The translations under genes and the position numbers were made by a program. Shown here piece after piece: positions 4,437 through 14,615 of a stretch of DNA of 26,439 nt (position 1 is its first letter; each line of letters begins with the position of its first letter). The notes beneath the pieces were generated by a model, which worked only from the letters and a program-made list of their open reading frames with translations, did no database searches and had not been told where the DNA came from. The stretch lies in the IMG/VR virus record IMGVR_UViG_2651869691_000005. One strand, written 5' to 3'. This stretch comes from a virus. Its lineage: Duplodnaviria; Heunggongvirae; Uroviricota; Caudoviricetes.

Positions 4437-4956
4437 CAATCCACCTGCGCACATTCTCACCGGCTTCAGAAGCCACATCGGATGCTTTCGCGATTTCAGT
4501 TTTCACAGCATCAAGATGTGCGGGTGATATATCAGGGTATTTACGCTGCAGTGTCTGAGGGACACGGACAAGGCTCCCTGATATATTCTGTGCCACTCGC
4601 TGAAAGATGTAGGTAAATAACTCCGTCTCGAGGACAAGGCCTTCCTCACGAGCATTTTTCAGCTCCTGTGCATCGGCCTGTGCCTTCGTCAGTCGGTAAC
4701 GTTCGTAATCAATGGTGCCGGGCTGAAGGTCTGATTCGCTGGCAGCCCTCAAATCCTCGATCTCTTTACGGAGTTTTTCGTTTTCAATATCAGCTTCCCT
4801 CTGCGCATACCACTGAATGGCAGCAGTTGTATCAAAAACTGATTCAGTCCCTTTCCCTCCACCAGAAACTAGTGGTAACCCCTGACTCTGCCAGGCGGTG
4901 ATGGTCCTGACATCAACGCCAAAAATATCGGCCAGTTTTTTCTTATTGACGTTCAT
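4408..4956 (-). CDS. Nu1: Terminase small subunit (lambda Nu1-like)
   Basis: 182-aa [39 protein letters not shown]...[49 protein letters not shown], closely matching lambda Nu1 as recalled. Immediately downstream of cos. Confidence 0.9.
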
Positions 4957-5974: not shown

Positions 5975-6649
5975 TTTTATTCCCGGCATAGATAAGAATA
6001 AGTCTTATTCTAACAATGCAGCCCTGTCGGTCATCAATCCTCTGCTTAATGGCAATGACAATTATCCGACTTAAATCACAAATCAGACACATGACATAAC
6101 AGAGCTTGCGAGGTAACACATCGTCCGGTTTCTTCCACCATCGCACCGGACCAGCGACCATGAGGGGACAACGCCGCGCTCCGTTAACACGGTAAACCCC
6201 GGTGTGTATCGTTTTTGATTATCCCCGCACACTCGCGCAGAGGAGTCTCCCTCTCGGGCTGTGGTCTCTGTTGATGCGGGAATACGGCGACGATACAGTG
6301 CATAGTTATGTCAGGCTAAAATGCCTTTATCAAATCTGGGTAACGCAATCTGCCATTGTTGGCTCCGGTTGTGGTGATGATGTCAAGCAAGCCCATCTTG
6401 ACTATCTCAACTAGTCGATTCATGACATATGTCACATTTATACCAACCAGATCATTGCGTTGAGTTTACAACTCAATAATTCTTGGTTGGACGTCAAGTT
6501 TTGACGGTATTCGGGTGGCAGTTGATAGCAATCTTGGAACCGTCCACCTAATAGCTGCTTGTGTGGCGTTTAAATTGTGGAGTGCTCGCAACAGAACTTT
6601 TCTTTCTTGTTTGCGAGCGATGTTTAGCAACTTTTAAGAGAGTTAAGTC

Positions 6650-6880
6650 ATGGAGTTTTTGAAAGAGCATCATTTGCCTTCAATAATTTTTGGAATTTTT
6701 TCCGCCATTTTTTGGATTATTTCATGTTTTGCATCTTCCAAAGAACACCCACCAAAAACGGAACAAGGCAGTTTCTCATCACTGGGTTGTTTTAAAGCCA
6801 TTGAAATACAAAGTAAATGGAATAAACGGGCTGCTTTTTGCGCAGCGTTAGCTGTTCTTGCTCAAGTATTTAGCTTTTAG
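6650..6880 (+). CDS. Hypothetical small membrane protein (76 aa)
   Basis: ORF with a hydrophobic segment (LPSIIFGIFSAIFWIISCFA), opposite in orientation to the late genes, followed by an intrinsic terminator. Upstream region is rich in palindromes. Confidence 0.4.
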   Translation: MEFLKEHHLPSIIFGIFSAIFWIISCFASSKEHPPKTEQGSFSSLGCFKAIEIQSKWNKRAAFCAALAVLAQVFSF

Positions 6881-6897
6881 TTTCAAAAGTGTAAATC

Positions 6898-6931
6898 AGA
6901 ACCACTCGTATAGCGGGTGGTTCTCTGTTTT
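6898..6931 (+). terminator. Rho-independent terminator downstream of the 6650-6880 gene
   Basis: AGAACCAC...GTGGTTCT stem followed by a T-rich tract (CTGTTTTATT). Confidence 0.55.
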
Positions 6932-6996
6932 ATTCGTGTTGCGACTAAAACTAACTAAAATCACGCATATGAAAGATAATGGGAAAATTATCGCTA

Positions 6997-7434
6997 TCAT
7001 CGAAGGCATTGCGTCCTAATGTACTCCTGCAAGTAGTTAACCTGCGCGGTTATCCTGTCGATTCCACTTCGGAGACGGTAATAATTGAGTTCAGCATCTG
7101 CTGTAAGTCCTGGGGTTTCTCCATTGCCCATGCCGCTGGCTCCGGTCGTTGACTTTGCACAGGTGGCGGCGACTTGCAGGCGCTTACGCCCAGCAGAAAC
7201 ATCAGCACGGAGACTTTCGATAGTCGCATTAGCATCAGCAAGCTCCTTTGTGTATCTGGCGTCAAGTTCTGCTACATCACGTTGCCGCTTCTGCATATCA
7301 GCGATGATGGATGTGGCTTTATCGCGCTGCTCTTTGTAGGCGATGGCGTTATCACGGTAATGATTAACAGCCCATGAAAGGCAGACGATGAGGCAGATGA
7401 CCAGAACGTAGATAATCGCGGTTACTCTGCTCAT
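6997..7434 (-). CDS. Rz: Spanin, inner-membrane subunit (Rz)
   Basis: [39 protein letters not shown]... closely matches the lambda Rz N-terminus as recalled. Start ATG 7432-7434 overlaps the endolysin stop. Confidence 0.85.
7050..7235 (-). CDS. Rz1: Spanin, outer-membrane lipoprotein subunit (Rz1), embedded in Rz in the +1 frame
   Basis: Embedded ORF; from ATG 7233-7235 it reads [33 protein letters not shown]..., a lipobox followed by a proline-rich segment, the classic Rz1 arrangement. Confidence 0.75.
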
Positions 7435-7928: not shown

Positions 7929-8134
7929 TATTCACCTCTCGCAGCCTTACGCTTATCTTCTTTAATCTTGAAATAAAGGTTTGTCAGATACGTCAGCAGG
8001 CCAAACAGCAGACTCCCCAGCACACCTATTGCCACCCACTGGGACGGAGAGACTTTGTCCAGCAGCTGCAGTAACCAGTATCCCGTCCCCACCGCTGACG
8101 TGGTGTATGACACACCTGTTGTGATTTTTTCCAT
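7928..8134 (-). CDS. S: Pinholin (phage 21 S21-like)
   Basis: 68-aa [71 protein letters not shown], matching S21 pinholin as recalled. Its stop overlaps the R start (TAATG). Confidence 0.85.
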
Positions 8135-8390
8135 CTGATGTATGTCTCCGTCACCGCCGACAGAAAATGAAAGTAAAGAAAAACAAAAAAGCCGCCAGTG
8201 TCACCCACTGACGGCCAACGCCGGGAGCCGTGATTATGGCATTCAGGCTCTGCTAAAAATGCCAGATAACATTCCGGCCAACCCCTGATTCAGGTTATAA
8301 ATGACACAATATCTTGACAACATCCGTCACTGTCTGTCAGAAAATGTACTGCCAAGTATAAGTATCATGTGAAGTACATCTACCCGTTTT

Positions 8391-8427
8391 AGCCAGCGTC
8401 CTTCAGAGTGGGCGCTGGCTTTTTTTA
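8391..8427 (+). terminator. Plus-strand-oriented intrinsic terminator hairpin between nanS-p and S
   Basis: AGCCAGCG...CGCTGGCT stem followed by TTTTTTT on the plus strand. On the minus (late) strand the hairpin is not followed by a U-run, so late transcription is not expected to stop here. Confidence 0.45.
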
Positions 8428-10278
8428 TTATGCTGCCGGTGCATTTATCTCCAGCACCAGACTTTCTATCTCAACGCCATACGCTGCATTTTTGGTAATA
8501 TCCGTCAGCGTCAGCGCATTCAGCCCCAGTGTCAGACTGTCTTTTATGACCTGGAATGCCGGGCCAGCCACTCCATTCAGTTTCGGAGTAACCGTGGCAC
8601 TGCCGGCGGTGAACACCAGTTCCAGCGTCTGCCAGTCATTACTGTAATTCCCGAACTCGCCCAACTTTGTGTTTCCTGCTTTCTTGTGATGCATCAGATT
8701 CAGTTTGCCGTCTGTGGTCTGGGTGAAGAACGACATCAGGAACGGGTTACCAGTCCCGGTCATCGCCACGACGTCAGGTAACGCTACATCGGTATACAGA
8801 TAAATTCCCAGGCCGAACTGGTTGTTGGTCAGTGCGCCTGACAGTCGAAACTTACAGCTCAGTCTGCCACCCCGTGTCAGCAGGGAGACTGCGTCATCCA
8901 CCGGATGCATCAGGGACCAGGTTTTATTGCTCTGCTTGGCGATCTTAAATACACCACCCGACAACTGAATTCCGCCGTCCTTAATGGTCCAGCCCTGCGC
9001 AGCAGCCTCTCCGGCTGTCGGCAACAGGGAGATTGTGCGTACGGATGCATCTTCAGACGGCCCCGATGGCGTGTTGCCGCCGGGCGAGGGTTTGATTTCC
9101 GGTGCCTTACCACTGATGAAAGCTGAGGTGCGCCCGGCTGCGTTCAGAATAGCGGTTGCCATACGATCCGGAATAATGCTCCTGCGCGCCCATGAACTGA
9201 AATGTGTCGGGCGGTTTGATGATACCTGGTTTCCATTCGTTCTCGATGCCGCACCGTAATATCCTGATGCCGGAATATCCGGATCTTCTGCCGGTGCGTT
9301 AGTGGCGGTATTGACGCCGTTACCGTCTGTCATGAAGGGCACAAAATAAACGCCCTCACTCTCCCTGTTTTTATACCCGCCGTACACGGTGTCGTACTGG
9401 GTAGCGTATGTATTTTTCCAGTAATACGTCGTGTCACCACAAATCCACGGCACATTTACAGCACTGCCACCATGACACTGCGCGTTAAACACAGTGAGGT
9501 CAGCACGAAACTGCTTCAGCATGGCTGTAAACAGCGCAGGTTGCTGTGCGTAGGTGGCGGCGCTCATGTCAAACTCTCCCTGCATCCAGCACACCGCCAG
9601 CAACACATTTTTCGGGTTCTTCTGTAATGCAGCTTTAGTGCGCGCAATCAGGTCCTGATATAACGGTTTACCCACCCCCCAGCGCGCCGAATCCTGGCTG
9701 GCCCCCGCGTCCGCACTGAATGTCCCCTCCGCGCCCTGGGTGAATGCCGAACCACCACGACAGCATGGTACCAGCAGGATCCCCGCGTTATTCGGGATAT
9801 ACGGGAGCAGTTTTTTGGCAATATGTAAGCCCTGGCCGACACAGCCGTACTGCCCTTTGCTCAGGTCTGCCTTCGGATGATTCAGCGTACTCATATCCTG
9901 CACATCATGCAGACAGTGGTCAGCCGGGATGATGTCGTTATACGTACAACTCTCTCCACCCGGAGTTACCGTGCTGCGGCGCGCCAGCTGTTTAATGCGC
10001 GGATCCGGAGCATCGTAAGAATCCGGTAACGGAAGCCCTTCACCGTAGGCCATGCCGTTGGACTGTCCGGCAAGCACAACCACGTAGAACCAGTCCGGCT
10101 CAGTTGCACCACTGACGACCACATCACCTTCTGCTGCAATCGCCTGCATCAGGGTATAAGGGGTTATGGCCACCGGACTACCAAACGGCTGCCAGCCCTC
10201 TTTCAGTTTATGTGTCAGCTTTTCCGCAAGATCTGACGGCGACGCCGCCCTGACAACATCATAGTGTTTAAATGCCAT
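8428..10278 (-). CDS. nanS-p: Prophage sialate O-acetylesterase (NanS-p-like; N-terminal DUF1737-like segment plus SGNH/SASA esterase domain)
   Basis: Large ORF; N-terminus MAFKHYDVVRAASPSDLAEKL... and a GQSN esterase motif (VVVLAGQSNGMAYGEG). Sits immediately upstream of S, as the nanS-p genes do in EHEC Stx prophages. Start chosen at ATG 10276-10278 for its better SD. Confidence 0.8.
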   Translation of the reverse strand: MAFKHYDVVRAASPSDLAEKLTHKLKEGWQPFGSPVAITPYTLMQAIAAEGDVVVSGATEPDWFYVVVLAGQSNGMAYGEGLPLPDSYDAPDPRIKQLARRSTVTPGGESCTYNDIIPADHCLHDVQDMSTLNHPKADLSKGQYGCVGQGLHIAKKLLPYIPNNAGILLVPCCRGGSAFTQGAEGTFSADAGASQDSARWGVGKPLYQDLIARTKAALQKNPKNVLLAVCWMQGEFDMSAATYAQQPALFTAMLKQFRADLTVFNAQCHGGSAVNVPWICGDTTYYWKNTYATQYDTVYGGYKNRESEGVYFVPFMTDGNGVNTATNAPAEDPDIPASGYYGAASRTNGNQVSSNRPTHFSSWARRSIIPDRMATAILNAAGRTSAFISGKAPEIKPSPGGNTPSGPSEDASVRTISLLPTAGEAAAQGWTIKDGGIQLSGGVFKIAKQSNKTWSLMHPVDDAVSLLTRGGRLSCKFRLSGALTNNQFGLGIYLYTDVALPDVVAMTGTGNPFLMSFFTQTTDGKLNLMHHKKAGNTKLGEFGNYSNDWQTLELVFTAGSATVTPKLNGVAGPAFQVIKDSLTLGLNALTLTDITKNAAYGVEIESLVLEINAPAA

Positions 10279-10538
10279 GGTTCTTTCCACCATCTGAAAA
10301 ATAATTCTTTAAAATACCTGACATGTAATACAGAAAAAACACAAAACCATACCTTAAATAAAAACCTCATCATCAAGCAGATATGCATGGATAAACTACA
10401 AGACGAGATATAAACCACCCTGCATTTAAATAAACAATAAACAACATCAGAAAAATAATTCTGCTCTATGGTTTACAATCAAAAATATCATTTATACTTT
10501 TCAGAACATCACCAGCAAGGCATAAACAAGGAAACTAA

Positions 10539-10874
10539 ATGAAGTGGATTGTGATTGATACAGTTATCCAGCCATCATGCGGAATATCTTTTTCAGTCAT
10601 ATGGAGTAAAATAAAATTAATAATCTGGTATCAATCGGATGCTTTCTTACCTCCTGAAAGTATATTTACACTGACTCACACAGGTATCATGCTCAATAAC
10701 AAAGTGCTACCTGTAACCATTTACAACGTAGTACCATTCAATAAAACATTCTGGAATTTAATCAAAAACAGCCAGGAATGCCCTACAAATACAGATAACG
10801 TATTGAATGAATGCTTTAATAACCGTTGCACTCTGCAAATATGTCCTTATGGGCTAAAACAACAAAATCCATAA
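10539..10874 (+). CDS. Hypothetical protein (111 aa) in AT-rich cargo segment
   Basis: ORF with a good SD (AAGGAAACTAAATG); Cys-containing C-terminus. No family recognised. Antisense to the late operon. Confidence 0.35.
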
Positions 10875-11306
10875 GGAGTTTACTCACATCTGACAAAATC
10901 AATATAAACAGCCCCTCCGGAGAGGGGCTGGAGAGTGGCGCTATGTGCCATTGCATGGTGCCGGGTGCCTCCCGGTGAATTCAGTACCAGCACCTGAATC
11001 CGCGATTATCCCATATACCTACTCGCTGATTGCCCCTCCGCACAGGGGGATTCACCATGCCAGTTTCTTTTAACAAACTCCCCGCAAACCAGACAACAGT
11101 CAACCGCCTGAATTGTGAAGTATTTAAAAATTTCTCCGGCTAACAGTCTGGCGTTTTCTTTTTCAGCAACGGGAAAGCAACAACCACCACACCCGCCACC
11201 AGTACACAGTCAGCCAGCACTGACATTATCCGGCTGCTGCAATGCCATTCACAAAAACAGTAAGCAATCACTTTTTACCGTAACAGGTGATAATCCAGAT
11301 ATGTAT

Positions 11307-11633
11307 CTACCCCAGATGAGTAATCCGAAGTTCATCCATACCACAGGTCCTGGCTATTCTGTTGTACTCCTGAACAAGAGCAAATAATTCTGAATTAGCA
11401 ACCATGAACTCATCGCAAACCCTCTGTATAGCATCACTATTCAGAATAATAACGTCTCTTCCCAAAAGACGATCAGGAGTACAGAACAAAACTGTCAAAC
11501 GGCTGAAGGCCTTTGCTCGTGCTGCATTGACTATATCAATACGCTGCCTAAGGATGAAACACCCCGACGCCTCATCAATATTCACTCTACCCACACCATA
11601 TGAATGATAAATATTTAATACTGAAAAAACCAT
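11307..11633 (-). CDS. Hypothetical protein (~108 aa from first ATG) in AT-rich cargo segment
   Basis: Minus-strand ORF directly downstream of the tRNA cluster, at the position stxA occupies in Stx phages. Hydrophobic N-terminus; weak RBS; no family recognised. Confidence 0.3.
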   Translation of the reverse strand: MVFSVLNIYHSYGVGRVNIDEASGCFILRQRIDIVNAARAKAFSRLTVLFCTPDRLLGRDVIILNSDAIQRVCDEFMVANSELFALVQEYNRIARTCGMDELRITHLG

Positions 11634-11770
11634 TAGACCGTATAACAAACACTCAATCAATACTTAACAGAACTTTTATTTTTGACAAACATATAATATT
11701 TTCAACAATATCCTGAGCCAGGTATATTCCAGTATAAGGCTCTGCCGGAAGAAATCTGGAAGAATGAATA

Positions 11771-11847
11771 TGGCGCGTTGTACTGGATTCGAACCAGTGA
11801 CCGATTGCTTAGAAGGCAATTGCTCTGTCCGGCTGAGCTAACAACGC
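11771..11847 (-). tRNA. tRNA-Arg (anticodon UCU)
   Basis: Reverse complement GCGTTGTTAGCTCAGCCGGACAGAGCAATTGCCTTCTAAGCAATCGGTCACTGGTTCGAATCCAGTACAACGCGCCA folds as a canonical cloverleaf with a TCT anticodon, TTCGAAT T-loop and encoded CCA. Confidence 0.8.
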
Positions 11848-11860
11848 ATAATGCAGATAA

Positions 11861-11937
11861 TGGATTGCCATCGGGGACCCGGGCCCCACACAGCCAGTTT
11901 CGAAAGCTGACGCTCTCTGCCGATGAGCTAATGGCGG
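11861..11937 (-). tRNA. tRNA-like element, possibly a degenerate tRNA (candidate anticodon UCG)
   Basis: Lies between two clear tRNAs with a D-arm-like GCTC...GAGC, but the acceptor stem has two terminal mismatches and the T-loop is CCCGGGT rather than TTCRANY. Confidence 0.35.
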
Positions 11938-11944
11938 TATGTGA

Positions 11945-12020
11945 TGGTGGCCCTTGCTGGATTTGAACCAGCGACCTGGCGATTATGAGTCGCTCGCTCT
12001 CACCACTGAGCTAAAGGGCC
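11945..12020 (-). tRNA. tRNA-Ile2 type (anticodon CAU, ileX/ileZ-like; elongator Met cannot be excluded from sequence alone)
   Basis: Reverse complement GGCCCTTTAGCTCAGTGGTGAGAGCGAGCGACTCATAATCGCCAGGTCGCTGGTTCAAATCCAGCAAGGGCCACCA; canonical cloverleaf, closely resembling E. coli ileX as recalled. Confidence 0.8.
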
Positions 12021-12069
12021 GGTAGCAGAATAATAATGGTGCGTAATTAATTCTGCAATCCCATCCGTT

Positions 12070-13119
12070 TCAAACGATTAAATCCTGAACTTCCCTGACT
12101 GTCTGTTCAAAACGTCCTGTCTCCAGCTCAACACCAATCGCACAACGCCCCAGTGCCATCGCCGCTTTTACCGTTGAACCTGAACCCATAAAAAAATCTG
12201 CAACCAGGTCTCCCGGACGACTGCTCGCGTTGATTATCTGCTGCAGCATTTCTGCCGGTTTTTCGCACGGATGTTTCCCTGGATAGTACTGCACCGGTTT
12301 ATGCGTCCAGACATCGGTGTACGGAACCTGCGCCGTCACACCGAAATACCGCCGCAAATTTTTATATTCACTCAGCAGTTCCGTATACTGCCGGTTCAGC
12401 TCACTGTATGTGCTGACCAGCTGGTGGTGTGGCTTTTCCAGTTCCCCGCGCTGATGTTTTTCTGCCGCAACACGCGCAAACAACGCCTGCAATTTGTTGT
12501 AATTACCCTCGTTCGGTAACTGCCACTGACTGGTACCAAACCAGTGCGAAGCCATGTTTTTCTTTCCGGTGGCTTCCGCTATCTGTTTTGACGTTATTCC
12601 CAGTGATTTACGCGCATCACGAAAGTAAGAAATCAGCGGGGCCATGACGTGCTGTTTTAGCTCGCGCCCCTGTGCCACATAGCCATCATCTTTCGGGCGA
12701 TACGGTCCCTGATAATGTTCTGCAAACAGAATGCGCTCTGTTGCCGGAAAATACGCCCGCAGACTTTCCTTATTGCACCCGTTCCAGCGTCCGGACGGCT
12801 TCGCCCAGATAATGTGGTTCAGCACATTAAAGCGCTCACGCATCATGATTTCGGTGTCAGATGCCAGGCGATGACCACAGAACAGGTAAAGACTTCCGGC
12901 AGGCTTCAGTACCCGCCAGAACTGCGCCAGACACTGGTCCAGCCATTTCAGGTAATCATCGTCGCCCTCCCACTGGTTATCCCAGCCCTCGGGCTTCACT
13001 TTAAAGTATGGCGGGTCTGTGACTATCAGATCGACAGAGTTTTCCGGTAAGGTCTGGATAAATTCCAGGCAATCAGCGTTGATTAACTCACAACTGGATA
13101 TTTTTACAGTATTAATCAT
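12070..13119 (-). CDS. Orphan DNA methyltransferase (beta-class amino-MTase, probably N6-adenine)
   Basis: 349-aa ORF with motif IV DPPY near the N-terminus (LIVTDPPYF) and motif I FxGxG near the C-terminus (DFFMGSGST). No restriction endonuclease ORF is adjacent. Confidence 0.85.
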   Translation of the reverse strand: MINTVKISSCELINADCLEFIQTLPENSVDLIVTDPPYFKVKPEGWDNQWEGDDDYLKWLDQCLAQFWRVLKPAGSLYLFCGHRLASDTEIMMRERFNVLNHIIWAKPSGRWNGCNKESLRAYFPATERILFAEHYQGPYRPKDDGYVAQGRELKQHVMAPLISYFRDARKSLGITSKQIAEATGKKNMASHWFGTSQWQLPNEGNYNKLQALFARVAAEKHQRGELEKPHHQLVSTYSELNRQYTELLSEYKNLRRYFGVTAQVPYTDVWTHKPVQYYPGKHPCEKPAEMLQQIINASSRPGDLVADFFMGSGSTVKAAMALGRCAIGVELETGRFEQTVREVQDLIV

Positions 13120-13269
13120 AGATCAATAAGCACTTCTCTGATAGGCTCATACCGCTTTTGCGCAAAGCAGATGGGCCTGAGGTTTGCTTGTGACCCCAAC
13201 GCATGAGCAGATGGCTGGCAGGTGCCGCTAACACCCACCAGCCGCCCATTACCACAAATTAAAAAGCCT

Positions 13270-13467
13270 TCACTGCGGAAGGCGTCTGTAACAACCGAAC
13301 TGATAATCTGCCAGACCCGCCATAACAAGCTGAGTCAGTATTAACTGGCAGCGTTCGCGTGAAAGGTAAGTATTCTGCGCAATTTCCCCGACGGTCGCCG
13401 GTTCGGTGACGCTTAATTCATTAAACACCACTCTGGCGGTTTCGGTCATATCCTGCTGTTTTAGCAT
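13270..13467 (-). CDS. Hypothetical small winged-helix-like protein (65 aa)
   Basis: Internal ATG at 13465-13467 chosen within track ORF 13270..13590; MLKQQDMTETARVVFNELSVTEPATVGEIAQNTYLSRERCQLILTQLVMAGLADYQ looks like an HTH. Lies just downstream of the terminator after Q. Confidence 0.35.
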   Translation of the reverse strand: MLKQQDMTETARVVFNELSVTEPATVGEIAQNTYLSRERCQLILTQLVMAGLADYQFGCYRRLPQ

Positions 13468-13589
13468 GCTTTTTTCCCTTTTCCGGTTAACGTGACATAC
13501 CAATACCTCTTGTCGAAAAAGCCAGCAAGCTGAAAGACCAGTATTCACAACTACCAGCGCGTTTAATGTTCTGTGCCGTTTTTCAGACA

Positions 13590-13616
13590 TAAAAAAACCC
13601 GCATAAAGCGGGTTCT
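13590..13616 (-). terminator. Intrinsic terminator downstream of Q (candidate tR')
   Basis: Minus strand reads AACCCGCTTTATGCGGGTTTTTTTAT: a 7-bp GC-rich stem, 5-nt loop and U-run, about 80 nt after the Q-like stop. Confidence 0.65.
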
Positions 13617-13698
13617 TTCAGGTGTCCATGTCTGCTATTCGCCTCGCGGTATAGCTTTGCGAAGCGTAGCTGGATTGAAACAGTTTATGCGTAAAAAA

Positions 13699-14241
13699 TC
13701 AAGACATTTTTTGAGCAAACGATTCTCGCATAGGGATGTATAGCGCATATTCAGCAACAGCCAACCAATTAGCAATTCGCTTTTCGCATGTACTAAAACA
13801 CCATTCCGGGTGCACCTCATTCAACAATTCAGCCATTTTGCGTTTACTCATCCCCCGCCCTTCGTACCTTTGCCGCAGGATATCAATCAATCCAGGATAA
13901 CGTGCAAGCGCTTTACTTATCACCCCATCAATGCGTAACGCCTCTGCATCAGTACAGTGAGACAACCAGCTCTTCTGTCTGCCAGCGATCATCTCTCGCA
14001 AGAATGCTTCCAGCTCTGGTTTATCAATCCCTGACTCCCTGATTCTACGCAGGGCTTCATTGATTGCGGTTTTTGTCAGTTTTTTGGATGCCAGCAACTG
14101 ATTGAACATATTTCCTGGTTTGCCACCACCTATATACGACCAACGCCCCCACATCCGTAATTTCCCCTGGATCCAGACGGCTTCCAGCGTTTTTAGACGT
14201 AAATGCTCGCCGCTTTTGCCTGTAATTTCCGGGTATATCAT
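13699..14241 (-). CDS. Putative late antiterminator (Q-like)
   Basis: Assigned mainly by position: directly downstream of rusA and upstream of a strong terminator and the late genes. I do not recognise the sequence with certainty. Start ambiguous (ATG 14239-14241 or GTG 14251-14253). Confidence 0.5.
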   Translation of the reverse strand: MIYPEITGKSGEHLRLKTLEAVWIQGKLRMWGRWSYIGGGKPGNMFNQLLASKKLTKTAINEALRRIRESGIDKPELEAFLREMIAGRQKSWLSHCTDAEALRIDGVISKALARYPGLIDILRQRYEGRGMSKRKMAELLNEVHPEWCFSTCEKRIANWLAVAEYALYIPMRESFAQKMS

Positions 14242-14249
14242 ATTTACGA

Positions 14250-14615
14250 TCACTCACTCTCAATTTTGTAAATCTTCACGCCCAGCCGTCCCCCAGGAAC
14301 GCGCTGACCGCGCACAATATTGATTTCATCAAACTGCTCGTCGTCTATGAGAAGTCCGGCATGCGTCAGCGCATCCAGTGGTGCTTTCAGGATATTGTCC
14401 AGGTCACGACGACGTTTATCCGGTGGCTCTGCAATAATCTTTATCGCCAGCCTTCCGGACAGGTTTAATTTCAGCCGCTGCTGGCGAACAATAAGCGCCA
14501 CATCACGGCGATAACGCTCACCGGCTTTTGATACAAAATATGTGCTGCCACGACGTCGCCAGTAAGTGTTCACCGTTGGCGGGTAAGGCAAAACAAATTC
14601 TATGCGTTCAGTCAT
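14250..14615 (-). CDS. rusA: Holliday junction resolvase RusA
   Basis: 121-aa ORF MTERIEFVLPYPPTVNTYWRRRG...PDKRRRDLDNILKAPLDAL...; RusA-like length, catalytic DLDN region and nin-region position. Confidence 0.85.
   Translation of the reverse strand: MTERIEFVLPYPPTVNTYWRRRGSTYFVSKAGERYRRDVALIVRQQRLKLNLSGRLAIKIIAEPPDKRRRDLDNILKAPLDALTHAGLLIDDEQFDEINIVRGQRVPGGRLGVKIYKIESE

What the first reader, a model, noticed from the sequence alone, without database searches (positions are those of the whole stretch)
10294..11770. AT-rich cargo segment of uncharacterised genes at the stx-equivalent position
The late region has the Stx-phage layout (Q, terminator, tRNA cluster, cargo, nanS-p, S-R-Rz), but the slot where stxAB would sit holds ~1.5 kb of strongly AT-rich DNA instead. 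It carries convergent ORFs with no family I can recognise: 10539-10874 on the plus strand (111 aa, good SD) and 11307-11633 on the minus strand (~108 aa, hydrophobic N-terminus). Between them lies a run of strong stem-loops (for example CAGCCCCTC-CGGA-GAGGGGCTG at 10909-10931). The compositional break and the position at a known virulence-cargo hotspot make this the best candidate for an undescribed moron, such as a toxin, defence or anti-defence function, or a structured RNA.
Basis: partly seen in the sequence, partly recalled or inferred. Interest (0 to 1): 0.75.

Follow-up and report, generated by a model that had tools for sequence, protein, structure and literature searches.

The report
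Known iraL and STnc100 prophage cargo
The AT-rich stretch is real prophage cargo at the Shiga-toxin position, but it is mostly a described cluster, with one small conserved gene of unknown function that genome annotation misses.

Summary
Window 10294-11770 is AT-rich (38.9% GC against 49%), and it lies between the tRNA cluster and nanS-p in a late operon that runs on the minus strand. The "undescribed" reading does not hold.

- **Plus-strand ORF (10539-10874):** this is IraL, the RssB anti-adaptor that stabilises RpoS. It is 110/111 identical to the characterised CFT073 protein. The published 5'-RACE transcript start sequence matches exactly at 10506.
- **Stem-loops:** these are an STnc100-family small RNA (10900-11089, minus strand, Rfam 132 bits). 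The noted hairpin is its terminator. In Stx2 phages the same RNA follows stx2B.
- **11140-11271 (minus):** a DUF3927/TciB-like 43-aa membrane peptide.
- **Minus-strand ORF:** It belongs to phrog_2873, of unknown function, and folds as a helix/beta-hairpin/helix coiled coil. PGAP never calls it.

Bona fide Stx2a and Stx2c phages carry stx2AB followed by STnc100, an iraM-family gene and nanS-p. The true stx-equivalent slot is therefore only about 11104-11770.

The 10200-12100 stretch containing the interval is 99.7% identical to EPEC E2348/69 prophage PP5. It is at least 80% covered in 863 of 5,426 complete E. coli genomes. Interest is low; the only open question is the 92-aa protein.

The parts
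10294..10469 (.). AT-rich (about 29% GC) intergenic DNA between the divergent starts of nanS-p (minus) and iraL (plus). It holds a PhoP-box-like TGTTTATTGTTTATTTA at 10427-10443, which is not statistically significant.
10470..10498 (+). iraL sigma-70 promoter: -35 region GGTTTACA at 10470-10477 and -10 TATACT at 10493-10498.
   Evidence: Read, positioned relative to the published 5'-RACE start (PMC4045071).
10506..10538 (+). iraL 5' UTR. The transcription start is at 10506 and the Shine-Dalgarno AAGGAA at 10527-10532.
   Evidence: The 30-nt published 5'-RACE sequence matches exactly at 10506-10535.
10539..10874 (+). iraL, an RssB anti-adaptor (111 aa), transcribed against the phage late operon.
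   Evidence: NCBIfam NF007393 at 161.9 bits against a cut-off of 121. PDB 8twd IraM at E = 9e-32. 110/111 identical to CFT073 IraL, WP_000871291.1.
10900..11089 (-). STnc100-family small RNA (homologue of EcOnc27/sRNA103). Its 3' end is the intrinsic terminator hairpin at 10909-10930 plus a U-run.
   Evidence: Rfam RF02076 at 132.4 bits against a gathering score of 47, over the full model 1-206. Terminator scan. 9 of 33 pairs show compensatory changes across 12 copies. The qPCR primers of PMC12370729 match when read by eye.
11140..11271 (-). DUF3927/TciB-like 43-aa single-pass membrane peptide.
   Evidence: Pfam PF13064 at 90.2 bits against a cut-off of 25. 98% identical to the CFT073 CDS annotated as DUF3927. 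The homologue is named tciB in phage JLK-2012.
11307..11585 (-). ORF92: a 92-aa cytoplasmic coiled-coil protein with a GTG start, in family phrog_2873 (function unknown). PGAP does not annotate it.
   Evidence: phrog_2873 at E = 1e-56. Homologues found. dN/dS about 0.27 in three lineage pairs. Start codon inferred. AlphaFold2 pLDDT 92.
11586..11770 (-). AT-rich (31% GC) leader between tRNA-Arg and ORF92. It has weak promoter-like hexamers at 11705-11678. About 75 nt of it is conserved with the L004 variant but shows no coding signature.
11771..12020 (-). Upstream boundary: tRNA-Arg(tct) 11771-11847, a degenerate tRNA at 11864-11937, and tRNA-Ile2(cat) 11945-12020.
8428..10293 (-). Downstream boundary: nanS-p-type SASA esterase (DUF1737 + SASA + DUF6645).

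Best explanation
The interval is a mosaic of four small, already catalogued cassettes in the Q-to-lysis region of a non-Stx lambdoid prophage. The prophage is of the type found at potB in UPEC CFT073 and as PP5 in EPEC E2348/69.

**1. iraL (shown by near-identity to a characterised gene).** It is read from its own sigma-70 promoter, against the late operon, so it is expressed in the lysogen. IraL binds the N-terminal domain of the adaptor RssB. This blocks delivery of sigma-S to ClpXP, so RpoS is stabilised already in log phase.

**2. STnc100-family small RNA (shown for homologues, inferred here).** It lies on the late strand and ends in an intrinsic terminator. In lysogens this terminator closes off transcription from the upstream cassette. 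The RNA is Hfq-bound in EHEC homologues.

**3. A TciB-like 43-aa membrane peptide.**

**4. ORF92.** This is a conserved 92-aa antiparallel coiled-coil protein of unknown function, and it occupies the place that stx2AB occupies in Stx2 phages. I infer that it acts by protein-protein binding in the cytoplasm.

Cassettes are exchanged between prophages at the conserved tRNA, STnc100 and esterase junctions.
For: **Identity with published loci.** Window 10200-12100 is 99.7% identical to E2348/69 and at least 80% covered in 863 of 5,426 genomes. It is colinear with CFT073 at 96.5%.

**IraL.** Supported. The published TSS sequence matches exactly. Function is from PMC4045071. RIL-seq chimeras between the PP5 copy's mRNA and Spot 42 show that it is transcribed.

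**STnc100.** Supported. It lies 75 nt after stx2B in VT2-Sakai, next to convergent AsxR. Hfq binding, a Northern blot and 11 copies in EDL933 are reported in PMC4104026, PMC5331693 and PMC12711010.

**Slot mapping.** Stx2_EH1846 and an O157 Stx2c prophage have tRNAs, stx2AB, STnc100, an iraM-family gene and the esterase in that order.

**ORF92.** Supported. It sits in the same slot in 19 IMG/VR prophages and in a Citrobacter prophage, ahead of tciA/tciB.
Against: - No expression data exist for this exact copy of STnc100 or for ORF92. No chimera mapping to the PP5 STnc100 region was found in the stored, truncated RIL-seq tables.
- The terminator hairpin has no U-run on the plus strand, so how iraL transcription ends is not explained.
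- The window protein differs from CFT073 IraL by one residue (N110 instead of S110).
- ORF92's Shine-Dalgarno sequence is weak and its start is GTG.
- Fold searches give only generic coiled-coil or prefoldin-beta-like matches.
Confidence: 0.85

Rival explanations
1. The interval encodes an undescribed toxin, defence or anti-defence function that replaces Shiga toxin.
For: The segment is AT-rich cargo at a virulence hotspot. ORF92 has no assigned function.
Against: - Three of the four elements belong to known families, none of which is a defence or toxin family.
- ORF92 family members give no meaningful PADLOC hit. Only 2 of 13 matched, weakly, to HEC-06 at E = 9e-4. There is no Pfam hit.
- ORF92 is a 10-kDa coiled coil with no enzymatic fold.
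- No signal peptide remains once the start codon is corrected.
Confidence: 0.05
2. ORF92 is a small lysogen-expressed regulator or adaptor. For example, it could modulate AraC-type virulence regulators or another host factor. This would make the stx slot here a regulatory moron.
For: - In STEC prophages a 59%-identical homologue starts 22 bp after a YdeO/GadX-like AraC gene.
- More distant homologues lie beside a PapB/K88-type fimbrial operon on plasmids, and directly after a bfpH-like gene of a type IV pilus operon.
- It is under purifying selection.
- The coiled-coil fold suits protein binding.
Against: - The AraC neighbour is present in only 1 of the 19 P0018-type IMG/VR loci (L021), besides STEC L004/L005.
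- There is no similarity to PerB or PerC, nor to any Pfam regulator family.
- The gene sits on the late strand, so it could equally be a lytic-cycle protein.
- There are no expression data.
Confidence: 0.15
3. The minus-strand ORF is a chance open frame in non-coding leader DNA, which is why PGAP does not call it.
For: - It is not annotated in E2348/69, CFT073, STEC1585 or mEp460.
- It has a GTG start and a weak Shine-Dalgarno sequence.
- Its taxonomic range is narrow.
Against: - The frame is kept open at 33-64% amino-acid identity in at least four lineages, including Citrobacter.
- Third-position differences are in excess, and dN/dS is 0.26-0.29 in every pair that is neither saturated nor near-identical. 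Over the longer 116-codon ORF, the off-frame controls gave 0.83-1.2.
- The AlphaFold2 model from only 13 sequences is confident (pLDDT 92).
- It is a PHROG family.
Confidence: 0.07
4. The interval is conserved phage backbone rather than cargo.
For: - STnc100 is present in 284 phage records, always just before the esterase or lysis genes.
- The whole arrangement recurs in 863 genomes.
Against: Related prophages fill the same tRNA-to-esterase gap in different ways:
- stx2AB (L006)
- stx2AB plus an iraM-family gene (L007, L017)
- tciA-tciB (L040)
- tciA, an AraC-like gene, an ORF92 homologue and four STnc100 copies (L005)
- ORF92 and tciB without iraL (L001)

There is also a compositional break.
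Confidence: 0.1

Closest known systems
IraL of UPEC CFT073 (Hryckowian et al. 2014, mBio; PMC4045071)
   Same: It is 110/111 amino acids identical. It has the same promoter and mapped transcription start sequence. It has the same neighbours: tRNAs, ORF92, DUF3927, STnc100 and iraL.
   Different: There is one substitution (N110 against S110). In this window the downstream esterase is full length, whereas CFT073 keeps only a DUF1737 stub.
IraM of E. coli K-12 (PDB 8twd; next to e14)
   Same: It is in the same family (NF007393) and is an RssB anti-adaptor.
   Different: Only 67/111 residues are identical, and the promoter and context differ. According to PMC4045071, IraM binds both RssB domains and is stress-induced, whereas IraL binds the N-terminal domain and acts in log phase.
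STnc100 / EcOnc27 / sRNA103 downstream of stx2B in Stx2 phages (Rfam RF02076)
   Same: It has the same covariance model, the same near-invariant core and the same position at the end of the moron cassette, before nanS-p.
   Different: Identity to the Sp5 copy is about 70% outside the core. In this window the convergent partner is iraL, not the anti-sRNA AsxR/AgvB. No AsxR or AgvB hit was found at E <= 1.
PasD1/PasD2 small RNAs of EPEC (Pearl Mizrahi 2021; Zhu, Shabalina and Storz 2026 preprint)
   Same: They are reported to share ancestry and structure with STnc100 and to occupy the same kind of prophage position.
   Different: The PasD probe has no match in the window, even with 3 mismatches allowed. 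This copy is therefore of the STnc100 type.
tciA-tciB cassette of phi80-like and JLK-2012 phages (TerB-like protein plus DUF3927)
   Same: A DUF3927 peptide lies in the same slot and is followed by STnc100.
   Different: The window has no TerB-like tciA gene, and ORF92 precedes tciB instead.
stx2AB moron of Stx2 phages
   Same: It shares the same left boundary (tRNA-Arg) and the same right boundary (STnc100).
   Different: The window has no toxin genes. Its slot holds about 670 bp (ORF92 plus tciB) instead of 1.2 kb.

Membership tests
IraM/IraL/RssC anti-adaptor family | Curated family HMM scored above its cut-off | tested here: met
   NF007393 scored 161.9 bits against a cut-off of 121. PDB 8twd matched at E = 9e-32.
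IraL subtype (CFT073) | At least 95% identity to CFT073 iraL, as that paper defines iraL matches | tested here: met
   110/111 amino acids are identical. The locus is 96.5% identical at the nucleotide level.
IraL subtype (CFT073) | Own sigma-70 promoter with the mapped 5' end ACATCACCAGCAAGGCATAAACAAGGAAAC | tested here: met
   The sequence matches exactly at 10506-10535. TATACT is the -10 element, read.
IraL subtype (CFT073) | Binds the RssB N-terminal domain and stabilises sigma-S in log phase | not testable with these tools
   This is known only from PMC4045071, for the protein that differs by one residue.
STnc100 small RNA (RF02076) | Covariance-model score above gathering, over the full length | tested here: met
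   The score is 132.4 bits against 47, over model positions 1-206 of 206.
STnc100 small RNA (RF02076) | Secondary structure kept by compensatory changes | tested here: met
   9 of 33 pairs show changes on both sides across 12 copies. One hairpin pair switches AU to GC in 5 sequences.
STnc100 small RNA (RF02076) | Rho-independent terminator at the 3' end | tested here: met
   There is a 9-bp GC-rich stem at 10930-10909 followed by TTTATATTGATTTT.
STnc100 small RNA (RF02076) | Expressed and Hfq-bound | not testable with these tools
   This is shown for homologues (PMC4104026, PMC5331693). No entry mapping to the PP5 STnc100 region was found in the stored RIL-seq tables.
DUF3927 / TciB | Pfam PF13064 above gathering, and a single hydrophobic helix | tested here: met
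   The score is 90.2 bits against 25. The hydrophobic stretch SVLADCVLVAGVVVVAFPLL is visible in the translation.
phrog_2873 (function unknown) | Profile match over the whole protein | tested here: met
   E = 1.1e-56, with protein residues 1-91 aligned to profile positions 18-108.
Stx-converting phage cargo | stxA/stxB genes between the tRNAs and STnc100 | tested here: not met
   A tblastn panel with stx2A gave no hit in the CFT073 locus (L018), which is colinear with this window. The window itself holds only ORF92 and tciB in this slot.
Anti-sRNAs AgvB/AsxR | A 51-60 nt RNA convergent with the STnc100-type small RNA | tested here: not met
   There is no RF02702 or RF02703 hit at E <= 1 in 8000-14500. 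AsxR was found in the VT2-Sakai control.
Anti-phage defence systems (PADLOC) | A match of ORF92 family members to a defence protein model | tested here: not met
   The window protein gave 0 hits. Two distant members gave a weak HEC-06 hit at E = 9e-4.
PerB / PerC regulators | Profile similarity of ORF92 to the small proteins that follow the AraC-like PerA | tested here: not met
   hhalign probability was 1.5% for PerB and 0.2% for PerC.

The most novel reading that the evidence does not exclude
ORF92 (11307-11585, phrog_2873) may be an overlooked small coiled-coil protein that prophages carry in the exact Shiga-toxin slot. It also travels with AraC-type regulators and pilus/fimbrial operons. 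It could be a new lysogenic-conversion factor that acts by binding a host or virulence regulator, in the way that IraL next door binds RssB.

Separately, the near-invariant multi-stem core of STnc100 could reflect a protein-binding or cis-acting role on the late transcript, rather than ordinary seed pairing.
Probability: 0.12. Interest if true: 0.5.

Novelty: already known. Interest (0 to 1): 0.18.

Why it matters
As it stands the finding matters little. It re-identifies the iraL locus and an STnc100 copy, which are present in roughly a sixth to a quarter of complete E. coli genomes.

Two modest points are useful:

- **Slot boundaries.** Comparison with Stx2a and Stx2c phages places the toxin slot between tRNA-Arg and STnc100. 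It also shows that STnc100 recurs as a cassette-end module, which helps in reading other prophage late regions.
- **A missed gene.** A 92-aa gene under purifying selection is missed by RefSeq annotation in at least E2348/69, CFT073 and STEC1585. It is a cheap target for tagging and deletion in well-studied strains.

Tried and rejected
**ORF92 family and fold searches**
- Pfam, NCBIfam and PADLOC gave nothing for ORF92.
- A PDB profile search gave only a chance hit at E = 0.9.
- The afdb50 library was unavailable.
- Relationship to PerB or PerC was rejected.

**Other checks that came back negative**
- The PasD probe is absent from the window.
- A PhoP-box-like motif lies upstream of iraL, but 40% of shuffles give at least one such match. 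I did not treat it as evidence.
- The sigma-70 promoter scan found 6 sites against 5.1 expected, so it gives no independent support for promoters of ORF92 or STnc100.

**Searches that failed or found nothing**
- The search for related loci with alignments A3 and A4 failed because there was no sufficiently conserved stretch.
- P0029 gave no viral loci.
- P0012 has no contig on record.
- The preprint 10.64898/2026.08.12.744399 is not held.
- The supplement of the IraL paper is not held.

**Start codon.** I first took the long 117-aa ORF at face value. I then corrected the start using homologue boundaries and codon-position counts.

Full report
**1. What is in the sequence**

The phage late region runs on the minus strand. 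In order it holds:
- a Q-like gene (13699-14253; DUF1133 plus a weak Phage_antitermQ match)
- a DNA methylase (12070-13119)
- tRNA-Ile2(cat) at 11945-12020 and tRNA-Arg(tct) at 11771-11847
- the interval in question
- a nanS-p-type SASA esterase (8428-10293)
- holin, endolysin and Rz

The interval 10294-11770 has 38.9% GC against 49.0% for the whole window. That is the second lowest of 2,497 sliding windows of the same size. The AT-richness is uneven:

| Segment | GC |
|---|---|
| upstream of the plus-strand ORF | 29% |
| plus-strand ORF | 34% |
| just after the tRNA | 31% |
| middle segment with the stem-loops | 55% |

It has nine pairs and a loop of four, and only on the minus strand is it followed by a T-run.

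**2. The plus-strand ORF is IraL**

- ORF 10539-10874 scores 161.9 bits on NCBIfam NF007393, "anti-adapter protein IraM" (cut-off 121).
- It matches the solved IraM chain 8twd at E = 9e-32.
- PGAP annotates the same gene in EPEC E2348/69 PP5 and in the potB-island prophage of UPEC CFT073 as WP_000871291.1.
- The window protein differs from that sequence at one residue out of 111. It is only 67/111 identical to K-12-type IraM.
- The CFT073 gene is iraL. Hryckowian et al. [quoted passage not shown]
- Their 5'-RACE sequence for the iraL mRNA end occurs exactly once in the window, at 10506-10535. That places a TATACT -10 element at 10493-10498 and an AAGGAA Shine-Dalgarno sequence at 10527-10532.
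- RIL-seq data for E2348/69 contain chimeras between the PP5 copy's mRNA (E2348C_1245) and Spot 42, so that copy is transcribed.
- iraL with its promoter is present at 80% coverage or more in 1,433 of 5,426 complete E. coli genomes.

**3. The stem-loops are an STnc100-family small RNA**

- Rfam RF02076 matches 10900-11089 on the minus strand over the whole model, at 132.4 bits against a gathering score of 47. The quoted hairpin is its terminator.
- On thermodynamics alone the fold is unremarkable (z = -1.5).
- An alignment of 12 copies from related prophages keeps 33 pairs, 9 of them with compensatory changes. It shows an almost invariant core.
- The qPCR primers used for "STnc_100" in STEC (PMC12370729) both occur in this element. 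I read that by eye.
- In VT2-Sakai the family member starts 75 nt after stx2B and abuts the convergent anti-sRNA AsxR. Tree et al. call it EcOnc27, an Hfq-bound RNA at the "moron" site (PMC4104026).
- EDL933 has 11 copies, one of them verified by Northern blot (PMC5331693). Variants downstream of stx2 are reported as HUS-predictive (PMC12711010).
- A 2026 preprint relates STnc100 to the EPEC small RNAs PasD1 and PasD2. The PasD probe is absent from this window, so this copy is of the STnc100 type.
- No AgvB or AsxR homologue is present. iraL takes the convergent position instead.

**4. The other late-strand genes**

ORF 11140-11271 is a DUF3927 peptide (Pfam 90 bits). It is annotated as such in CFT073 and named tciB in phage JLK-2012, where it follows a TerB-like tciA gene.

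Several results place its real start later:
- Searches of 1.8 billion and 5.8 billion proteins found only about 30 relatives, from E. coli, Shigella and Citrobacter. They are mostly 91-95 aa long and align from residue 26 of the long ORF.
- Between the window and a 59%-identical variant, the first 25 codons differ evenly across codon positions (11/9/12). The remaining 92 codons show the coding pattern (24/24/43).
- The gene is therefore 11307-11585, with a GTG start, and encodes 92 aa.

Other properties of this gene, here called ORF92:
- dN/dS is 0.26-0.29 in every pair that is neither saturated nor near-identical, across three lineages. On the longer 116-codon ORF, the off-frame controls gave 0.83-1.2.
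- It belongs to phrog_2873, of unknown function (E = 1e-56).
- It has no Pfam, NCBIfam or PADLOC assignment.
- AlphaFold2 gives a confident model (pLDDT 92): helix 3-35, a beta-hairpin at 39-46, and helix 50-81.
- Fold searches return only generic antiparallel coiled coils, with prefoldin beta as the top but non-significant Foldseek hit.
- It is not related to PerB or PerC.
- PGAP does not call it in E2348/69, CFT073 or STEC1585.

**5. Where the stx slot really is**

Several related prophages fill the tRNA-to-esterase interval differently:

| Prophage | Content of the interval |
|---|---|
| Stx2a phage Stx2_EH1846; an O157 Stx2c prophage | tRNAs, stx2A, stx2B, STnc100, iraM-family gene (convergent), esterase |
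| VT2-Sakai | the same, without the iraM-family gene |
| JLK-2012 | tciA-tciB before STnc100 |
| mEp460 | ORF92-tciB, no iraL |
| STEC1585 | tciA, STnc100, a YdeO-like AraC gene, an ORF92 homologue, then three tandem STnc100 copies |
| 19 IMG/VR prophages; a Citrobacter prophage | ORF92 homologue, tciA, tciB between the methylase or Q gene and the holin |

Pairwise mapping shows that homology to the Stx phages stops at the tRNA-Arg end (about 11763) and resumes at about 11118. STnc100 and iraL are therefore not stx replacements. The slot equivalent to stx2AB is about 11104-11770, holding ORF92 and tciB. The interval as a whole is variable cargo assembled from a small set of recurring cassettes, and STnc100 recurs at cassette ends.

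**6. How it most likely works**

*Shown, by near-identity to a characterised gene.* iraL is expressed from its own promoter in the lysogen. Its product sequesters RssB, which raises sigma-S in growing cells.

*Shown for homologues, inferred for this copy.* The late-strand RNA is an Hfq-associated small RNA, and its terminator closes the upstream cassette in the repressed prophage.

*Inferred only.*
- ORF92 is a cytoplasmic protein-binding coiled coil.
- Its scattered association with an AraC-type gene, a fimbrial operon and a type IV pilus operon hints at a regulatory partner. However, the association is not consistent.
- How iraL transcription terminates is not explained, since the hairpin lacks a U-run in that direction.

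**7. Verdict**

Its reading as an undescribed moron is not.
- The 10200-12100 stretch containing the interval is 99.7% identical to a published EPEC prophage. It is colinear with the CFT073 iraL locus, and is at least 80% covered in 863 of 5,426 complete genomes.
- Its two most conspicuous features are IraL and STnc100, both already described.
- The residual novelty is a small conserved gene of unknown function that automatic annotation skips.
- Novelty: already known. Interest: about 0.18.

Noticed in passing
window about 8349-8426 (+): The EPEC small RNA PasC lies just after the esterase stop codon and converges on it. Its published Northern probe matches 8374-8398 (-) exactly. The coordinates were mapped from NC_011601 1290909-1290832.
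   Followed up: partly
window 11864-11937 (-): A third, degenerate tRNA lies between the two called tRNAs. It scores 22.2 bits on the Rfam tRNA model, below the threshold of 29. ARAGORN and PGAP skip it, but the older E2348/69 annotation lists three tRNAs here.
   Followed up: no
window 13592-13665 (-): There is a weak isrK-like match (21.6 bits against a gathering score of 50) directly downstream of the Q-like gene. That is where a PR'-tR' short transcript would lie.
   Followed up: no
L005 (STEC1585 prophage) 4575-4787 and 6547-7256; L002 4165-4358 and 4634-4822: Single late regions carry several STnc100 copies. STEC1585 has four, three of them head to tail. This suggests that STnc100 is a reusable cassette-end module and a recombination site.
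   Followed up: partly
alignment A5 of STnc100 copies (window 10900-11089): Two core segments, GCAUGGUGAAUCCCCCUGUGCGGAGGGGC and UCACCGGGAGGCACCCGGCACCAUGC, are nearly invariant, while the flanks are about 70% identical. This is a stronger constraint than is usual for a seed-pairing small RNA.
   Followed up: no
window 10427-10443 (-): A PhoP-box-like TGTTTATTGTTTATTTA lies about 65 nt upstream of the iraL transcription start. It is the only such site in the window, but 40% of shuffles give at least one.
   Followed up: partly
L011-L013 (E. coli plasmid contigs) 4347-5276: A 34%-identical ORF92 homologue lies about 580 nt after a tRNA gene, next to a PapB/K88-type fimbrial operon on Rep3 plasmids. 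It looks like a transplanted phage fragment.
   Followed up: no
L003 7031-7156 and L018 43269-43394 (equivalent to window about 10945-11070, +): PGAP annotates a partial pseudo 'hypothetical protein' on the strand opposite STnc100 in E2348/69 and CFT073. It is probably a spurious call over the small RNA.
   Followed up: no
window 13270-13590 (-): A 106-aa ORF lies between the Q-like gene and the methylase, with only a sub-threshold TrmB-type HTH match (E = 0.008). PGAP annotates a shorter 65-aa hypothetical protein there in E2348/69.
   Followed up: no
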